From Candidatus Woesearchaeota archaeon (GTDB lineage Archaea > Nanobdellota > Nanobdellia > Pacearchaeales > GW2011-AR1): a DNA stretch of 64,000 nucleotides. Of the stretch, positions 21,461 to 57,735 are shown piece after piece. Position numbers and translations under genes: made by a program. The notes beneath the pieces are model-generated. The model did not search any database. It was not told the DNA's origin and was given only the letters and a program-made list of their open reading frames with translations. The stretch lies in NCBI GenBank assembly GCA_964509675.1, contig CAZDXC010000001.1, forward strand, positions 115,973-179,972, written 5' to 3'. Numbering within the stretch: the stretch's first letter is position 1; every line of letters starts with the position of its first letter.

Positions 21461-21596
21461 TGGCCCCGATGGGATTTGAACCCACGACACCTGGATCTCT
21501 TTGCCTATTGTAGTTTCTTTGAGCGCCGAATCTTTCTTTTCTAAAGAAAGTTGGGCATAAAAGTCCAGTGCTCTAACCAGACTGAGCTACGGAGCC
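21461..21596 (-). tRNA. tRNA-Lys(UUU) with a 61-nt intron at the canonical 37/38 position
   Basis: The 5' exon is GGCTCCGTAGCTCAGTCTGGTTAGAGCACTGGACTTTTA and the 3' exon is ATCCAGGTGTCGTGGGTTCAAATCCCATCGGGGCCA. The acceptor has seven pairs (one G-U), the D-stem is GCTC/GAGC, the anticodon stem is CTGGA/TCCAG, and the T-arm is GTGGG-TTCAAAT-CCCAT. CCA is not encoded. Confidence 0.75.
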
Positions 21597-30399: not shown

Positions 30400-30750
30400 C
30401 TATAATTCTTCAGGATAACTATTCACAATTCTGATTTTATCTGAACCATTATATCTTGTTCCAAATTCTCCTCTCTCTCCAATAAAACTATATGCACGAT
30501 TATTTAATCTTATTCTAACTTCTTCAATTGCTTCCCAGTTATCAGCATTTTCTGGTATGTATTTCAGTTCTATTCCATCAATTTCAGTATTTTCTTTTAG
30601 TTCAAGAGTTGCAATCTTGTCCAAATCCCCTCCTCCCCAAGGTCTTGTTAATTTTGCTGTAAGTTTATTTCCTTGTTTTAATTGTAGAAGTTCTTGGTTT
30701 TCTCTTTGTAGCATCAAAATATAATCCTGTCCATCAAATAATGCTTTCAT
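30400..30750 (-). CDS. hypothetical protein
   Basis: A 116-aa ORF with no recognisable motif. Confidence 0.4.
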   Translation of the reverse strand: MKALFDGQDYILMLQRENQELLQLKQGNKLTAKLTRPWGGGDLDKIATLELKENTEIDGIELKYIPENADNWEAIEEVRIRLNNRAYSFIGERGEFGTRYNGSDKIRIVNSYPEEL

Positions 30751-30858
30751 TTGAAATTCCTATTTCGAATGAATGGAAATCGAAGATTTGCTTTCATAAA
30801 AAAACTAATAATATTGAAATTTATAAGTTTATAATAAACTGAAAAATATATAATATTT

Positions 30859-33075
30859 TTATATTCTCTTTCTTCTGAGCAGATTTGCATTGCTTACAAC
30901 AGTCACAGAAGATGTAGCCATTGCTATTTCTGCTATTACAGGGTGCAATAAGCCTGCAATTGCAACAGGGATTGCTATGATATTGTAAAAGAAAGCCCAA
31001 AATAAATTTTGTTTTATTTTTCCAAAAGTTGCTTTTGAAAGATTAATTGCCTGAACAACCCCCTTTAAATTTCCTGTCGCCAAAACAATATCTCCTGCTT
31101 CAATTGCGATGTCTGTTCCTGTTCCTATTGCTATTCCAACGTTGCTCTCTTTCAATGCAGGAGCATCATTCACGCCATCTCCGACAAAAGCCACCATGCC
31201 ATGTTGTTTCATCTCCTTGGTTATTTTCACTTTATCTTCTGGAAGAACATTTGCAACAATTTCCCTGATTCCGACTTTATTCGCTATGGCTCTCGCAGTT
31301 TTTTCATTATCTCCTGTAATCATCACTGTTTTGTATCCAGCCTTGTTCAGATGTCTTATAGACTCGATAGAATCTTCTTTAATTGCATCAGCAACTGCTA
31401 TCACCCCCAAAACCTTTTTATTTTCAGAAACTATCATTGTTGTCCATCCCTTTCTTTCAAATTCCTCTACCTCGCTTTCAAATCCTTCTACAGATATCCC
31501 CTTTTCTTTTAACAAATTCCTGCTTCCAATAATCACGTTCTTTGTTCCGATTTTTCCTTCAATTCCTCTTCCTCTTAAAATCCTGAATTGGGAAACTTTC
31601 CTGTATCTCTTTAAATTTGCTTTTTCTACAATCGCCCTTGCAATAGGATGCTCGCTCAGCTTTTCCAGGCTTGCGGCTATGTCCAAGAGATAACTCTCCT
31701 TGATTTTAGTGTAGATTTCAGCAACTTCTGGTTTTCCTTTTGTTATTGTTCCTGTCTTGTCAAATATAATTGTCTTAATATTTCTCATGGTTTGAATTGC
31801 TTCTCCTTTTCTGATTAATATCCCTCTTTTTGCTCCCATCCCTGTTCCAACCATGATTGCAGTAGGAGTTGCCAATCCCAATGCACACGGACATGCAATT
31901 ACAAGGACAGAAACCATTACAGAAATTGCTCTGCTTAAGTCTTTTTGAAAATACCACCATCCTGCAAGAGTCAGAACTGAAATCAATAAAACAACAGGGA
32001 CAAAAACATTGGTTATCCTATCTGCGAGTTTCTGTATCGGAATTTTTGTTCCCTGCGCTTCTTCTACTAATTTTATTATATGAGACAAGAATGTGTCTTT
32101 TCCTATTTTTGTTGCCTTGACATACAAAATTCCATCCTGATTTATTGTTGCCCCTATAACATTGCTTCCCTTTCTTTTCTCGACAGGCATACTCTCTCCT
32201 GAAATCATGGATTCATCAACAGCACTCTCTCCTCTTATTACTATCCCGTCAGTAGGGATTTTTTCTCCTGGCTTGACAATCATGATATCTCCTGTTTCTA
32301 TTTCAGAAATTTCAACTTCAATTTCCTTTTTTCCTCTCAGCACAACAGCTTTTTTTGCTCCCAGTTCCAGAAGTTTTTTTATCTCCTGGCTTGCCTGTCC
32401 TCTCGCTTTCATCTCAACATATTTTCCTGTCAGAAAAAAAGCCATTATCATTGCAGAAACTCCTGAATAATCCAGAGTTACTCCAGTTAAACTCAAAATA
32501 CCTGTGATATATGCCACTACTGTTCCGAGAGCAATAAGAGAATCCATATTAAAATAAAAATTAAAAAATCCTCTAAAGCCTCCTCTCAAGGTATTAAAAC
32601 CAAAAATAAAAATAACAGGAAAAGCAATAATCATAAGGACAATCGTCATAACATTTTCTTCAAAAAATCTCAGGCCAAAAAGCCTTTCAGAAAACATAAT
32701 TAATGCAATAGGAATAGTCAAGAGCCATGCCCAAATCATTTTTCTTCTCCAGATTTTTATCTCTGGCTCTCCCACGGGCTGTTCATGATGGTGTTCGCCA
32801 TTTTCAGTAAGATGCTGTGCATGTTCATCATGGCTTTGAATCTCTTCAGAATTTTCAAATTCAATTTTTGTTGCCTTGTATCCCCCGACTCTTGAAACCG
32901 CTTTTTTCAATTCTTCTTCAGAAACCCTTTCACCATTATCAAATTCAACAAATCCTCTTTTGGCGATTAAATTAACATGAGCACTTTTAACTCCGTGTAT
33001 TTTTTTCAAGCTTCTTTCTATGTTCGCTGCACAGCTCGCGCAATGCATACCTTCAATTTCTATTCTTGCTTTCAT
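30859..33075 (-). CDS. copA: copper-translocating P1B-type ATPase
   Basis: N-terminal [11 protein letters not shown], the TM CPC motif [12 protein letters not shown], phosphorylation site DKTGTIT, and GDGVNDAP. Confidence 0.95.
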
Positions 33076-54827: not shown

Positions 54828-55502
54828 ATGAGCAAAGCAGCAGTTTTATTCTCAGGAGGAAAAGATTCAACTTATGCGGCATACTTGGCAAGAGAAGCAG
54901 GAGCAGAAATAAAGTGTCTGTTATCTCTTTTTTCAGAAAACAAGGCTAGTTACATGTTTCACACCCCGAATATAAAATTAGTAAAAGTCCAGGCAAAAGT
55001 AATGAAAACGCCATTGCTAACAGACAAAACAAAAGGAATAAAAGAGGAAGAATTAAAAGATTTGACAGAAATAATAAAAAAGGCAAAGAAAAAATACAAG
55101 ATAGACACAATTGTGACAGGAGCTCTTCATTCTAAATATCAGGCAAGCAGAATTCAGAATATTTGCAATAAACTAAATCTAAAGTGCTTCAATCCTTTAT
55201 GGCATAAAGATGAAATATCTTATTTGAATGAATTGGTTGACAATGAATTCAAGGTAATGATTATAGGAGTGTTTGCATATCCTCTTGACAAAACCTGGCT
55301 TGGAAGAATTATAGATAATGAATTCATCAAAGAAGTTGAAGAACTCAAGGAGCAATACAAGATTCATGCTGCAGGCGAAGGCGGAGAGTTTGAGACGTTT
55401 GTTCTTAATTGCCCTCTTTTCAGCAGCGAGATAAAAATCAAATCCTTCAAGGATTTCCAGGAAGGGGAGAATGCTTGGAGAAGAGAGATAAGAGTTAGTT
55501 AA
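54828..55502 (+). CDS. dph6: diphthine-ammonia ligase (Dph6, MJ0570-family PP-loop ATPase)
   Basis: AVLFSGGKDSTYA PP-loop, the GEGGEFETFVL signature and a 224-aa length. Confidence 0.8.
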   Translation: MSKAAVLFSGGKDSTYAAYLAREAGAEIKCLLSLFSENKASYMFHTPNIKLVKVQAKVMKTPLLTDKTKGIKEEELKDLTEIIKKAKKKYKIDTIVTGALHSKYQASRIQNICNKLNLKCFNPLWHKDEISYLNELVDNEFKVMIIGVFAYPLDKTWLGRIIDNEFIKEVEELKEQYKIHAAGEGGEFETFVLNCPLFSSEIKIKSFKDFQEGENAWRREIRVS

Positions 55503-55503
55503 G

Positions 55504-55965
55504 ATGAAAAGAGAAGAATTTGATTATTATATCTTCATGGATTACTCTGAAAATTTAATTGGATATATAATTATTGATAAACAAAAATTGAATGAACTTT
55601 TACCTAAAATTACCAAATTAAAACATTATAAAGGACTAAAAAATAAAGTGCAATACTTAAATGCCGCAAAAAAATTATTTAAGAAAAATAGAATTTTAGA
55701 TATAGTATCCAAACATAAGATAGCAGAATTGAGGCAAAATGTTGAGCTCTGTTCAGAAATTTTAGATTTTTGCAGAAAAGAGTCTGAATCCAAGATGTTT
55801 ATCTCTGTTGATGACAGACAACATAGGGGCTTCATGAAAATTCTCTCTTTAATTGATGGAAAAAGGTTTAAGATTATAAAAGAGGGGCAGTTAAAGGTAA
55901 ATTCTCCAGAATATCAAATGAACTTAATAATAGATACTTTGTTAAATCTAAAAAGAACAAGATAA
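55504..55965 (+). CDS. hypothetical protein coupled to dph6, with a possible RNase H-like fold
   Basis: It starts 2 nt after the dph6 stop. Its N-terminus YYIFMDYSENLIGYIIID resembles the first two beta-strands of RuvC/YqgF-type folds; this is weak. Confidence 0.35.
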   Translation: MKREEFDYYIFMDYSENLIGYIIIDKQKLNELLPKITKLKHYKGLKNKVQYLNAAKKLFKKNRILDIVSKHKIAELRQNVELCSEILDFCRKESESKMFISVDDRQHRGFMKILSLIDGKRFKIIKEGQLKVNSPEYQMNLIIDTLLNLKRTR

Positions 55966-56213
55966 AATTAATAGAGTAGTAGGTCCGTCAATCCTACTAA
56001 CCGCCTCTAAGGACGGGATTCGTCAGGACCTGTTTCCCTATGATTTATATAGATATCCAAAATTTAAATATCTTTCTGTTTTCATTTCATATCAACAGAT
56101 ATAAAATAAGTTAAAAAGTTCAAGGATGTCCAAGAAAGGAATATGGTTGGAGAAGAGAAATTGAGGTTTTGTGATATATAAATTCTTAAAAGCAATATTT
56201 TCTTTTTGAAAAA

Positions 56214-56610
56214 ATGAATAAAGATTACAAAATTTGGACACCAGTTAAAAAAAACATAAACAATAATAGATCTCATCCTATAGGATATAAAGCAAGAGAT
56301 ATTTGGATTTGCAATATTGGTGAGAATATCGGATTTGAAGAAGATGGGAAAGGGAAATGAATTTATTCGTCCTATATTAATTTTGAAAGTTTTTAACAGA
56401 CAATTTTGTCACGTTGTTCCTCTTTCTAAAACAAATAAAGGCGGAAAGTTTTATTATTCTTTTGATGGAAAAACCGGGAAAACAAGTGTGGCTTTGTTGA
56501 GTCAATCAAGGGCAATTGATTCAGCAAGATTACTTCGTAAAATTGGCATGGCAAACAAGAAAGATTTTGATGAAATAAGGAATAAATTAAAAGAAGTTTT
56601 ATCTTTATAA
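56214..56610 (+). pseudogene. MazF/PemK/Kid-family endoribonuclease toxin gene interrupted by a +1 frameshift
   Basis: Frame A from ATG 56214 encodes ...ARDIWICNIGENIGFEEDGKGK and stops at TGA 56358-56360. The +1 frame (ORF-track 56317..56610) continues with NEFIRPILILKVFNRQFCHVVPLSKTNKGG...SVALLSQSRAIDSARL. Together these align along the full length of Kid/MazF, which has a D(L)IW block and HRP, NR, VP.T, QxR.ID and RL motifs. Confidence 0.55.
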
Positions 56611-56745
56611 TTGTTCATCTCTGCCCTTGCGAGCAGAGGACATCCCGAAGGAATTTGTAATATTATGAGGATTTCAAGGTTTAAATAATTTTTGATGGTG
56701 TTTCAGTAATGGGAGTTAGGAAGGGAAGGTTTAGGAAGGAGGAGA

Positions 56746-57213
56746 TTGGGGGGAGTTGGGAATGGGGGGAGATTTTTTAAAGATAAAGAGAACTTAATTA
56801 GTATGGGTAAATTGGAATTTGATTCTGAAGGAAGAGTAAAAGTTCCTGAAATTAAAAAAGAACCTAAAAGAAAAATTCTTTTTTCAGAGAAAAAAATAAT
56901 TTTGAAATATTGTGGAGTAGAACAGGATAAATTAATTGAATGTGAATGGGAAATAAAATTACCAAAAGAGGCAAAAGCAAAAGAAGTTTTTGAGATTAAA
57001 AATTGGGTAGATAAAGTAGTTGATTTGCATAAGCCTGCTTGGATTTATATCAAAAAGATAAATGATTCTCCATTGGAATATTCATTGATAATTAAAGGAC
57101 GGGGACAAGATGAAAGATGCACTTGGTGTCAATCATTTCGTACCTCATTAAAGACACATTTTAAAAAATTAGGAATTGAATTAAAGGAAATTGGGGGATG
57201 TAGGTTTGTATAA
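56746..57213 (+). CDS. hypothetical protein
   Basis: A 155-aa ORF whose likely true start is MGKLEF at 56803. Confidence 0.35.
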   Translation: MGGVGNGGRFFKDKENLISMGKLEFDSEGRVKVPEIKKEPKRKILFSEKKIILKYCGVEQDKLIECEWEIKLPKEAKAKEVFEIKNWVDKVVDLHKPAWIYIKKINDSPLEYSLIIKGRGQDERCTWCQSFRTSLKTHFKKLGIELKEIGGCRFV

Positions 57214-57270
57214 ATAAATTATATTTTAAGATATAGATATTTTTTTATATACTCATCCGATTCATTTATT

Positions 57271-57735
57271 ATGGATAATATTGCTGAAGAAAGATTTAAA
57301 GAATGGTTAGATAAAAATAAAATTCCTTATTGGTATTTAGATCAATCACTAGAAAGTTTTTCACCTGCATTAAAAGAATATCTAAAAATAAAAAGACCTG
57401 ATTTTATAATACTACTACCAAACTTTGGTTTTATTTTTGTTGATATCAAAGAAAAGAAACCCGCAAAAGATTATGACAAGTTTTTTGTAGATGGTGAAGA
57501 AGTTGAGAAATATTTGAATATTCAAAGAACATTTAATATACTTACATGGTTTGTTATTTCTAATGAAGAATACCATTATAAAACATGGTTTTGGGTACCT
57601 GTAACAGATATAATGAAAACAGGATTTCTTTTAAAAGAAAAGAATGCTTATGCAGTTCCTATAAATGAATTTATCCAAGTTTCAGATAATGATAATTTAG
57701 GAAGAGTTTTTAGTAAACTTCTTAAGATGGGTTAA
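57271..57735 (+). CDS. PD-(D/E)xK nuclease-fold protein (Hjc-like?)
   Basis: N-terminal AEERFKEWL, then RPDFIILLPNFGFIFVDIKEKK (PD ... D-x-K spacing as in Hjc PDIIA...IEMK). Confidence 0.4.
   Translation: MDNIAEERFKEWLDKNKIPYWYLDQSLESFSPALKEYLKIKRPDFIILLPNFGFIFVDIKEKKPAKDYDKFFVDGEEVEKYLNIQRTFNILTWFVISNEEYHYKTWFWVPVTDIMKTGFLLKEKNAYAVPINEFIQVSDNDNLGRVFSKLLKMG

What the first reader, a model, noticed from the sequence alone, without database searches (positions are those of the whole stretch)
56214..56610. MazF/PemK-like toxin gene split by a +1 frameshift at AAA-UGA-A, with no detectable antitoxin
The N-terminal 48 codons (…DIWICNIGENIGFEEDGKGK) stop at a TGA. The rest of a full-length MazF/Kid homolog (EFIRPILILKVFNRQF...SVALLSQSRAIDSARL...) continues in the +1 frame. 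The junction lies in a GGGAAAGGGAAATGAA run. It may be a decaying solitary toxin or a homopolymer sequencing error. More speculatively, it could be a +1 recoding site of the RF2-like type (shift at a stop codon after AAA). No small antitoxin ORF precedes it. The flanking genes are a PD-(D/E)xK nuclease-fold protein and Lys-rich unknowns, so this region (55.5-58.8 kb) looks like accessory or defence-type DNA.
Basis: seen in the sequence. Interest (0 to 1): 0.55.

Follow-up and report, generated by a model that had tools for sequence, protein, structure and literature searches.

The report
Broken MazF toxin with RNA partner
This is a MazF-type toxin gene recently knocked out by one extra A, which is ordinary decay rather than recoding, but its whole subfamily lacks a protein antitoxin and is instead always paired with a small structured RNA gene that is still intact here and is the likely antidote.

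Summary
ORF 56214..56360 (48 codons, stops at TGA) and the +1 frame up to 56610 together encode a full-length 131-aa PemK/MazF protein.

The split comes from one extra A in GGGAAATGA (56355-56357). The two closest orthologs compared base by base read GGG-AAT / GGA-AAT there, and nearly all of more than 140 homologous proteins are single 130-131-aa ORFs. An independent Logan assembly of SRR14802574 carries the same base. dN/dS against the closest ortholog is 0.10 in both halves. Two other relatives carry different frameshifts at other sites. AAA-TGA-A also ends two other long ORFs in this window. I read this as a recent inactivating mutation, not RF2-like recoding.

"No antitoxin" is true for proteins, and across the whole family: no neighbouring ORF is conserved in about 80 loci. 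Every intact copy examined is instead followed by a convergent small-RNA gene. On the minus strand it reads 5'-ACAAAU, then a 3-bp UUCG hairpin, then a covarying GNRA or UUCG hairpin. A TATA box in archaea, or TTGACA/TGnTATAAT in bacteria, places the transcription start on the same A. The window copy (about 56658 to 56612, TATA at 56679-56692) is intact. No Rfam family matches it. I propose it is an RNA antitoxin; this is inferred, not shown.

The parts
56174..56183 (+). TATA-like box (ATATATAAAT) about 35 nt upstream of the mazF ATG. It implies a monocistronic mRNA with a short leader or none.
   Evidence: Sequence. All 14 archaeal relatives have a TTTATA/TTTAAA-type box 25-40 nt upstream of their ATG. 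The function is inferred.
56214..56360 (+). N-terminal fragment of mazF: codons 1-48 in frame 0, ending at TGA 56358-56360.
   Evidence: It aligns to residues 1-48 of intact 131-aa homologs. In the model it covers the N-terminal helix (residues 5-17) and strand 1.
56355..56357 (+). Frameshift lesion: an AAA run holding one extra A compared with orthologs (window GGGAAATGAA; orthologs GGG-AATGAA and GGA-AATAAT).
   Evidence: DNA alignment A2. The same base is present in the independent Logan contig L001.
56347..56610 (+). Remainder of mazF in frame +1 (GKGNEFIRP...SL, stop TAA 56608-56610). It contains the conserved Arg52-Pro53 and Ser71.
   Evidence: Pfam 46.1 bits. Arg52 and Ser71 align with Arg25 and Thr48 of B. 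subtilis MazF, PDB 4MDX. This part is annotated separately as the 88-aa protein P0094 in the NCBI record.
56612..56658 (-). Core of the predicted small RNA. On the minus strand it reads 5'-ACAAAU (56658-56653), P1 UCC-UUCG-GGA (56652-56643), linker, P2 CUCUGCUC-GCAA-GGGCAGAG (56638-56619). The 3' end is undefined and may run into the mazF 3' end.
   Evidence: Minus-strand fold is -16.3 kcal/mol with z = -2.67; plus-strand z = -0.72. The element is conserved next to mazF homologs in about 90 copies. P1 and P2 covary. Minus-strand loops are UUCG or GNRA. No transcript data were available.
56679..56692 (-). BRE/TATA box of the small-RNA gene (minus strand AAAATTATTTAAAC), centred about 26 nt upstream of the predicted start at 56658.
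   Evidence: The motif sits at the same position in all 14 archaeal copies aligned. Bacterial relatives have TTGAC(A/T) and TGnTATAAT at the matching distances.
56064..56168 (+). Decayed, frameshifted duplicate of the last ~31 codons of dph6 (54828..55502). It marks an insertion junction upstream of the mazF module.
   Evidence: tblastn of the Dph6 C-terminus, E 0.12 in a 3.5-kb target. DNA repeats D3 and D12, 75-83% identical. The evidence is weak but consistent.

Best explanation
Window 56174-56692 is one copy of a roughly 0.5-0.6-kb two-gene module: a MazF-fold endoribonuclease gene with its own promoter, and a convergent small-RNA gene just past its stop codon.

In this genome the toxin gene has recently been inactivated. 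One extra A in a short A run (56355-56357) ends translation at codon 48, before the catalytic Arg52 and Ser71. The RNA gene and its TATA box remain at consensus.

Shown:
- the lesion and its absence from the two closest orthologs and from the intact homologs;
- that no neighbouring protein is conserved across the family;
- the conservation, covariation, strand and promoter placement of the RNA element.

Inferred:
- The RNA is the antitoxin. I think it most likely binds MazF directly through its single-stranded 5' ACAAAU and the UUCG hairpin (type III-like). Less likely, it acts as a cis-antisense RNA on the toxin's 3' UTR (type I-like).
- Losing the toxin while keeping the antidote is the expected harmless route of decay.
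For: Lesion:
- A2 shows a single inserted A compared with the 85% and 77% orthologs.
- More than 140 homologs were found, almost all of 130-131 aa.
- The Logan assembly is identical over 8,633 nt.
- The window is 86% coding.
- The repaired gene has dN/dS 0.10 against L003, 0.12 upstream and 0.08 downstream of the shift, so the decay is recent.
- All invariant family residues are retained.

Independent lesions elsewhere:
- L025 has a 2-nt loss in a (GA)n run near codon 28.
- L124 has a 1-nt C loss at the Arg52-Pro53 codons.

MazF identity:
- Pfam E 1e-13.
- AlphaFold pLDDT 82, with Foldseek top hits all MazF, probability 1.00, TM 0.7-0.8.

No protein partner:
- Neighbour clustering over about 80 loci gives only mazF paralogs, in 7 loci.

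RNA:
- The element is present after essentially every copy.
- P1 is 88% paired against 61% in shuffles, 0 of 500 shuffles as good.
- 15 of 18 pairs change on both sides.
- The minus strand is the more stable one in 56 of 80 cases, p = 3e-6. Its loops are UUCG 45, GCAA 21, GAAA 15.
- Promoters suited to each domain place the start on the same A.

Reciprocal search:
- 28 of 38 metagenome hits to the RNA's first 20 nt have a convergent mazF. Seven are orphan RNAs.
- No intact mazF lacks the element.
Against: - No reads were inspected, so a consensus error or a mixed population cannot be formally excluded.
- No transcript, binding or toxicity data exist for the RNA or for this MazF subfamily.
- The antitoxin role rests only on gene architecture and the presence/absence asymmetry.
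- ACAAAT is not avoided in the mazF ORFs (35 observed, 27.8 expected), so nothing supports it being the toxin's cleavage site.
- The P2 covariation count used arms taken from each sequence's own minimum-energy fold, which inflates the 100% pairing.
- A covariance model could not be built properly.
Confidence: 0.75

Rival explanations
1. Sequencing or assembly error: the real genome has AA, not AAA, and mazF is an intact 131-aa gene.
For: - The change is a single base in a homopolymer within a GGGAAAGGGAAA run.
- The rest of the gene is flawless.
- The NCBI MAG and the Logan contig may derive from the same reads.
Against: - Two assemblers give the same base.
- A 3-nt homopolymer is not error-prone in short-read data.
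- The window shows no general excess of broken genes: 86% coding, median ORF 173 aa.
- Real frameshifts occur in two other members.
Confidence: 0.08
2. Programmed or leaky +1 ribosomal frameshifting at AAA-UGA-A. Lys-tRNA would slip from AAA to AAU while the stop codon waits in the A site, giving low levels of full-length MazF (...GKGK-EFIRP...).
For: - A stop codon after a slippery AAA resembles known +1 sites: RF2 CUU-UGA-C and Euplotes AAA-UAA/UAG (my own knowledge).
- A G-rich tract lies just upstream.
- The +1 product would have the family's length of 131 aa and keep the family's conserved residues.
Against: - The site is not conserved. The two orthologs aligned base by base read GGG-AAT and GGA-AAT at the site, and almost all homologs are single 130-131-aa ORFs.
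- Other broken copies have unrelated lesions.
- Two other long ORFs in the window end with exactly AAA-TGA-A, and TGA is a regular stop in 11 of 62 long ORFs.
- No downstream stimulatory structure is evident.
Confidence: 0.05
3. The conserved downstream element is not an antitoxin. It could be only a 3' UTR, terminator or stabiliser of mazF, a recombination site of the mobile cassette, or an RNA substrate or cofactor of the nuclease. The toxin would then be controlled in some other way, for example by its N-terminal helix.
For: - No functional data exist.
- The module is flanked by 40-nt direct repeats in L003, so some conserved sequence could serve mobility.
- The subfamily has an extra N-terminal helix, residues 5-17.
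- ACAAAT is not avoided in the ORFs.
Against: - Conserved promoters on the opposite strand, swapped between the archaeal and bacterial types, and minus-strand terminators in bacteria show an independent minus-strand gene.
- UUCG and GNRA loops exist only on the minus strand.
- Orphan RNA copies and toxin pseudogenes with an intact RNA occur, but no intact toxin lacks the RNA. That asymmetry is the one expected of a toxin and its antidote.
Confidence: 0.3

Closest known systems
MazF/PemK/Kid endoribonuclease toxins of type II toxin-antitoxin systems (Pfam PF02452; e.g. B. subtilis MazF/EndoA, PDB 4MDX)
   Same: - Full-profile Pfam match.
- The predicted fold superposes on MazF structures.
- Arg52-Pro53 and Ser71 align with the catalytic Arg25 and Thr48 of B. 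subtilis MazF.
   Different: - About 25 extra N-terminal residues form a helix.
- No MazE/PemI-type gene, or any other conserved protein gene, lies next to it in about 80 loci.
- A convergent small-RNA gene takes that place.
- This particular copy is frameshifted.
Type III toxin-antitoxin systems (ToxIN, CptIN, TenpIN)
   Same: - An endoribonuclease toxin is paired with a small structured RNA rather than a protein. ToxN has a Kid/MazF-like fold (my own knowledge).
- The primary sequence of the RNA is conserved, as expected if a protein recognises it.
   Different: - Type III antitoxins are tandem repeats upstream of the toxin on the same strand, and the toxin processes them.
- Here there is one copy, downstream, on the opposite strand, with its own promoter.
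- No tandem repeats were found.
- The toxin is PemK-family, not ToxN-family.
Type I systems with convergent, 3'-overlapping antisense RNAs (B. subtilis txpA/RatA, bsrG/SR4; E. faecalis par)
   Same: - The geometry matches: the toxin gene and a small RNA gene are transcribed towards each other and meet at the toxin's 3' end.
   Different: - Those toxins are small membrane peptides.
- Their RNAs are longer and not conserved in sequence across phyla.
- Here a ~50-nt core with ultra-stable tetraloops is conserved across two domains of life.
CjrA (RNA antitoxin) / CjpT of Campylobacter jejuni plasmid pVir (Shen et al. 2016, Mol Microbiol 101:909; cited in PMC10470494 and PMC7826846)
   Same: - pVir carries a distant homolog of this MazF subfamily (40% identity over 105 aa, WP_011117588) with no annotated antitoxin.
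- Two hairpins follow it, and a TGATATAAT promoter points back at it.
- An antisense RNA antitoxin has been shown experimentally on this plasmid.
   Different: - I could not read the paper, so I could not verify that CjpT is this PemK-like gene.
- The pVir RNA lacks the ACAAAU-UUCG signature.
Programmed +1 frameshift sites (prfB/RF2 CUU-UGA-C; Euplotes AAA-UAR)
   Same: - A stop codon follows a codon that can re-pair in the +1 frame.
   Different: - The site is not conserved in any relative.
- The same heptamer is an ordinary stop elsewhere in the window.
Rfam pemK RNA motif
   Same: - By name, it is an RNA motif associated with pemK genes.
   Different: - It gave no match at E <= 10 in the window element or the L033 element, and none at gathering score in 14 loci.

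Membership tests
PemK/MazF toxin family (PF02452) | Profile match above the curated threshold over the whole domain | tested here: met
   51.9 bits against a cut-off of 23.1, profile positions 2-109 of 109, for the joined translation. PHROG 9567 'MazF-like growth inhibitor', E 1.7e-17.
PemK/MazF toxin family (PF02452) | MazF/Kid SH3-like barrel fold | tested here: met
   AlphaFold pLDDT 82.3, pTM 0.78. The top 50 Foldseek PDB hits are all MazF or MoxT, probability 1.00, target TM 0.66-0.80.
PemK/MazF toxin family (PF02452) | Catalytic Arg and Ser/Thr (Arg25 and Thr48 in B. subtilis MazF) | tested here: met
   Arg52-Pro53 is invariant and Ser71 nearly invariant (at least 90%) in the 99-sequence alignment A6. 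The two residues align with VRPVL and ITAQ of 4MDX.
PemK/MazF toxin family (PF02452) | Intact reading frame, i.e. a functional gene | tested here: not met
   TGA at 56358-60 after codon 48, caused by one extra A compared with orthologs.
Type II toxin-antitoxin system | Adjacent co-oriented gene for a protein antitoxin (MazE/PemI or other) | tested here: not met
   No conserved neighbouring ORF within 1.5 kb in about 80 loci. The mazF genes have their own promoters. Neighbours in the window have no Pfam hit. BLASTP at 1e-4 could miss very divergent small proteins.
Type III toxin-antitoxin system | Antitoxin RNA encoded as tandem repeats upstream of the toxin | tested here: not met
   TRF finds no tandem repeat in 55400-57300. 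The RNA element is single-copy, downstream and on the opposite strand.
Type III toxin-antitoxin system | The RNA binds and inhibits the toxin protein directly | not testable with these tools
   Suggested only by conservation of ACAAAU and the UUCG hairpin down to 35% protein identity.
Type I toxin-antitoxin system | Antisense RNA overlapping the toxin mRNA | tested here: inconclusive
   A convergent promoter and RNA lie 2-50 nt beyond the stop. Whether the mazF mRNA extends through that region is unknown.
Programmed +1 ribosomal frameshift (RF2 type) | Shift site and split frame conserved among orthologs | tested here: not met
   The two closest orthologs are in frame at this position, and almost all homologs are single 130-131-aa ORFs. 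The two other split copies are split elsewhere.
Programmed +1 ribosomal frameshift (RF2 type) | Shift heptamer avoided at ordinary stops | tested here: not met
   Two other long ORFs in the window end AAA-TGA-A.
Rfam pemK RNA motif or any other Rfam family | Covariance-model match | tested here: not met

The most novel reading that the evidence does not exclude
A widespread MazF subfamily has swapped the protein antitoxin for a dedicated ~50-nt RNA: 5'-ACAAAU, a UUCG hairpin, then a GNRA hairpin. It occurs in DPANN archaea and CPR/Patescibacteria and, more sparsely, in Coriobacteriia, Clostridia, Verrucomicrobia, Deinococcus and Campylobacterota plasmids. The RNA is encoded convergently and neutralises the nuclease, probably by occupying its RNA-binding groove as an uncleavable mimic. 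The ~0.6-kb toxin-RNA module moves between Archaea and Bacteria simply by exchanging the RNA gene's promoter type. The window holds a copy caught just after toxin loss.
Probability: 0.5. Interest if true: 0.75.

Novelty: new variant of a known kind. Interest (0 to 1): 0.5.

Why it matters
The frameshift on its own is ordinary gene decay and should not be listed as recoding.

The context matters more. "Solitary" MazF genes are common in ultra-small archaea and bacteria and are usually written off as orphans. If they are in fact guarded by a conserved small RNA, three things follow:
- MazF would gain an RNA-antitoxin branch, bridging types I, II and III.
- There would be a compact toxin-RNA pair that works in both domains of life.
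- It would explain why annotation pipelines find no antitoxin.

The idea can be tested directly with a two-plasmid toxicity rescue in E. coli and a gel-shift assay.

Tried and rejected
- **Stop-codon reassignment (TGA as sense).** Rejected. The frame changes at the junction, and TGA ends 11 of 62 long ORFs.
- **Integron attC site as the identity of the downstream element.** I found no R''/R' (RYYYAAC/GTTRRRY) inverted cores by eye, and the promoter evidence points to an RNA gene.
- **Rfam.** No family matches, pemK motif included.
- **Covariance model from an N-padded structural alignment.** The model was useless: 2 spurious hits. I replaced it with a motif scan and an exact-pattern metagenome search.
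- **First AlphaFold run with 24 sequences.** It failed at pLDDT 36. A rerun with 99 sequences worked.
- **Is ACAAAU the toxin's cleavage site, and so avoided in its own mRNA?** There is no avoidance, so the test was uninformative.
- **PADLOC defence models.** No hits for MazF or its four neighbours.
- **Viral contigs.** Only three distant hits at 28-33% identity, not followed up.
- **Literature.** All ten searches found nothing describing this RNA. The one likely precedent, Shen et al. 2016 on CjrA/CjpT, is not held, and I could not link it to the pVir PemK homolog.
- **A third copy of the dph6 3' end downstream of the module (56713-56750).** The similarity is low-complexity purine-rich sequence only, so I make no claim.

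Full report
**1. The observation**

Frame 0 runs from ATG 56214 to TGA 56358-56360 and gives 48 aa ending ...GFEEDGKGK*. Frame +1 stays open to TAA 56608-56610 and reads ...KKMGKGNEFIRPILILKVFNRQF...SL*. The junction is GAT GGG AAA GGG AAA TGA A at 56343-56361.

The joined 131-aa sequence matches Pfam PemK_toxin over the whole profile, positions 2-109 of 109, at 51.9 bits and E 1e-13. The C-terminal piece alone gives 46.1 bits. A database search found more than 140 homologs, nearly all 130-131 aa, and the 23 aligned are colinear with the joined sequence from residue 1. The best are 85% (P0001) and 77% (P0002) identical.

**2. What the lesion is**

I aligned the window DNA with the two closest orthologs. 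There is exactly one indel: the window has GGGAAATGAA where L003 has GGG-AATGAA and L002 has GGA-AATAAT. One extra A therefore sits in the run at 56355-56357.

- **Real base or artefact?** The protein database holds the 88-aa C-terminal fragment (P0094), listed from NCBI and Logan, with a longest contig of 221,803 bp. An independent Logan assembly of run SRR14802574 (L001) matches the window exactly over 8,633 nt, extra A included. The window is 86% coding with long ORFs, so it is not an error-ridden consensus.
- **Age of the lesion.** With the A removed, dN/dS against L003 is 0.10. It is 0.12 upstream and 0.08 downstream of the shift. All family-invariant residues are retained. The gene was under purifying selection until very recently.

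**3. Programmed recoding?**

The evidence points against it.

- The two closest orthologs lack the extra A, and the homologs in general are single 130-131-aa ORFs.
- L025, from a Nanoarchaeota MAG, has lost 2 nt in a (GA)n run near codon 28.
- L124, a metagenome contig, has lost one C in the Arg52-Pro53 codons.
- That makes three independent and different lesions among roughly 120 copies, which is sporadic toxin inactivation.
- TGA is a regular stop here, in 11 of 62 long ORFs, and two other long ORFs end with the same AAA-TGA-A.

A trace of +1 slippage at AAA-UGA cannot be excluded without an experiment. Nothing indicates it is selected.

**4. Identity of the protein**

An AlphaFold model built with 99 homologs has pLDDT 82. 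All of the top 50 Foldseek PDB matches are MazF or MoxT structures, with probability 1.00 and target TM 0.66-0.80.

A profile search of the PDB aligns Arg52-Pro53 and Ser71 with VRPVL (Arg25) and ITAQ (Thr48) of B. subtilis MazF, 4MDX. I know these two residues as the catalytic pair from my own reading.

The subfamily carries about 25 extra N-terminal residues, modelled as a helix at positions 5-17. The premature stop comes before Arg52, and the internal-start fragment lacks strand 1. Neither piece should be active; this is inferred.

**5. "No antitoxin"**

I fetched 80 genomic loci. They come from Pacearchaeota, Woesearchaeota and Nanoarchaeota; many Patescibacteria, including the cultured Minisyncoccus archaeiphilus; and a few Coriobacteriia, Clostridiales, Verrucomicrobiales and Deinococcus.

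I clustered all ORFs of at least 35 aa within 1.5 kb of each mazF. The only family shared by more than four loci was mazF itself, as tandem paralogs in 7 loci. The 14 archaeal copies listed each have a TATA-like box 25-40 nt upstream of the ATG. The lack of a protein antitoxin is therefore a property of the whole family, not a peculiarity of this window.

**6. What is conserved instead**

In the window, L002 and L003, the non-coding 50 nt after the stop are better conserved than the gene. The downstream sequence of about 90 copies shows the same element down to 35% protein identity.

Read on the minus strand, the element is 5'-(U)ACAAAU, P1, a short linker, then P2. P1 is 3-5 bp, usually with a UUCG loop. 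P2 is 5-13 bp, usually with a GNRA or UUCG loop. Bacterial copies add a U run.

- **P1 covaries.** Pair types are GC 21, UA 11, CG 3 at one position and CG 21, GC 12 at the next. Pairing is 88% against 61% in shuffles, and no shuffle of 500 did as well.
- **P2 covaries.** In a structure-anchored alignment, 15 of 18 pairs change on both sides and slid controls drop to about 50% pairing. The caveat is that the arms were taken from each sequence's own minimum-energy fold.
- **The strand is minus.** The minus strand is the more stable one in 56 of 80 cases (p = 3e-6). Its hairpin loops are UUCG (45), GCAA (21) and GAAA (15), which are special only on that strand.
- **The window copy.** It folds at -16.3 kcal/mol with z = -2.67 on the minus strand, against z = -0.72 on the plus strand.

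**7. It is a gene**

I aligned the minus strands on ACAAAT.

- All 14 archaeal copies have AAAATTATTTAAAC (BRE/TATA) at about -34 to -22.
- The 66 bacterial copies have a consensus TTGAC(A/T) near -35 and TGnTATAAT at -15 to -7.
- Two different transcription machineries are thus directed to start on the same A.
- In bacteria, P2 followed by a U run forms a minus-strand intrinsic terminator.

No Rfam family matches the element, the pemK motif included.

**8. Reciprocal test**

I searched metagenome contigs for the first 20 nt of the archaeal-type RNA and found 38 occurrences.

| Outcome | Count |
|---|---|
| Convergent mazF homolog next to it | 28 |
| Contig ends too early to tell | 1 |
| Complete two-hairpin RNA, no recognisable mazF | 7 |
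| Partial match only | 2 |

No intact mazF in either set lacks the element. Two of the three frameshifted toxins, the window and L124, keep a consensus RNA. L025 has also lost the TATA box and carries an insertion in ACAAAU.

The overall pattern is that the RNA occurs without the toxin, but the toxin never occurs without the RNA. That is the asymmetry expected of an antidote and its poison.

**9. Mechanism**

- **Shown:** the anatomy described above.
- **Inferred:** the RNA neutralises MazF.

I favour direct RNA-protein inhibition. The only single-stranded segment (ACAAAU) and the adjacent UUCG hairpin are conserved in sequence across both domains of life, which a purely antisense RNA would not need. 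The RNA starts at the A, so it would lack the nucleotide 5' of a U^ACA-type cleavage site.

This is speculative. ACAAAT is not avoided in the mazF ORFs.

A type I-like antisense effect on the toxin's 3' UTR is the main alternative. Transcriptional interference from the convergent promoter is also possible.

**10. Mobility and context**

- In L003 the ~600-bp module is flanked by direct repeats of 40 nt (95% identical) and 16 nt, copied from the 3' end of the upstream gene.
- In the window, 56064-56168 is a decayed duplicate of the last ~31 codons of dph6. This suggests insertions at the 3' end of that gene.
- Distant homologs lie on Campylobacterota plasmids and are annotated as PemK/MazF with no antitoxin. 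The Nitratiruptor copy has TGTATAAT, 7 nt, TAAATC, P1 and P2 on the minus strand. C. jejuni pVir has two hairpins and a TGATATAAT promoter.
- An RNA antitoxin, CjrA, has been reported on pVir (cited in PMC10470494 and PMC7826846). I could not verify that its toxin, CjpT, is this homolog.

**11. Verdict**

The finding as written is a real but ordinary frameshift pseudogene of a MazF toxin. The recoding idea is not supported.

The supposedly solitary toxin belongs to a subfamily that is always paired with a conserved convergent small RNA. That RNA is absent from Rfam, and I found no description of it in the literature I could search. It is probably the subfamily's antitoxin.

Noticed in passing
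window 56064-56168 (compare 55410-55502): A decayed, frameshifted duplicate of the last ~31 codons of the diphthamide-synthase-like gene dph6 (54828..55502). It lies after the 153-aa ORF 55504..55965, as if that ORF had been inserted into the gene's 3' end and brought a replacement end with it.
   Followed up: partly
window 55975-56040: A GC-rich island (GTAGGTCCGTCAATCCTACTAACCGCCTCTAAGGACGGGATTCGTCAGGACCTG) in an AT-rich spacer after ORF 55504..55965. The fold z-score is only -1.7 on the plus strand and -0.8 on the minus strand. It has no Rfam hit and no copy in the other fetched loci apart from L001, the Logan copy of this window.
   Followed up: partly
L003 107-172 and 709-760: The mazF + small-RNA module of the closest ortholog is bracketed by direct repeats of 40 nt (95% identical) and 16 nt, derived from the 3' end of the upstream gene. 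The ~600-bp module therefore behaves as an inserted cassette. How it moves is unknown.
   Followed up: partly
L025 5001-5394; L124 1041-1430: Two further family members are frameshifted by different lesions: loss of 2 nt in a (GA)n run near codon 28, and loss of one C in the Arg52-Pro53 codons. Toxin inactivation recurs in this family.
   Followed up: yes
L093, L109, L111, L116, L117, L119, L120 (metagenome contigs): Complete two-hairpin small-RNA copies with no recognisable mazF beside them. These are orphan RNAs, in two cases convergent with unrelated ~310-aa ORFs.
   Followed up: partly
L005 4437-5460; L057, L064, L075, L078; L037 5439 and 5642: Several genomes carry two or three tandem mazF + RNA modules. 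L037 has a second RNA copy about 200 nt from the first.
   Followed up: no
L087 (C. jejuni 81-176 pVir 30630-31130); L088 (Nitratiruptor plasmid): Plasmid-borne distant homologs are annotated as PemK/MazF toxins with no antitoxin, yet convergent promoter-plus-hairpin elements follow them. These may correspond to the published CjrA RNA antitoxin, which I could not verify.
   Followed up: partly
window 21461-21596 (minus strand): Rfam reports a 136-nt tRNA match that ARAGORN does not call. It is probably an intron-containing archaeal tRNA, which fits an archaeal (DPANN-like) host along with Dph6 and the archaeal relatives of this locus.
   Followed up: no
window 56715-56775: A purine- and G-rich tract (GGGAGTTAGGAAGGGAAGG...GGGGGGAG) lies just beyond the small-RNA promoter. 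Similar G-rich tracts follow the module in L003, L005, L006 and L008. Their meaning is unknown; they may mark the cassette boundary.
   Followed up: no
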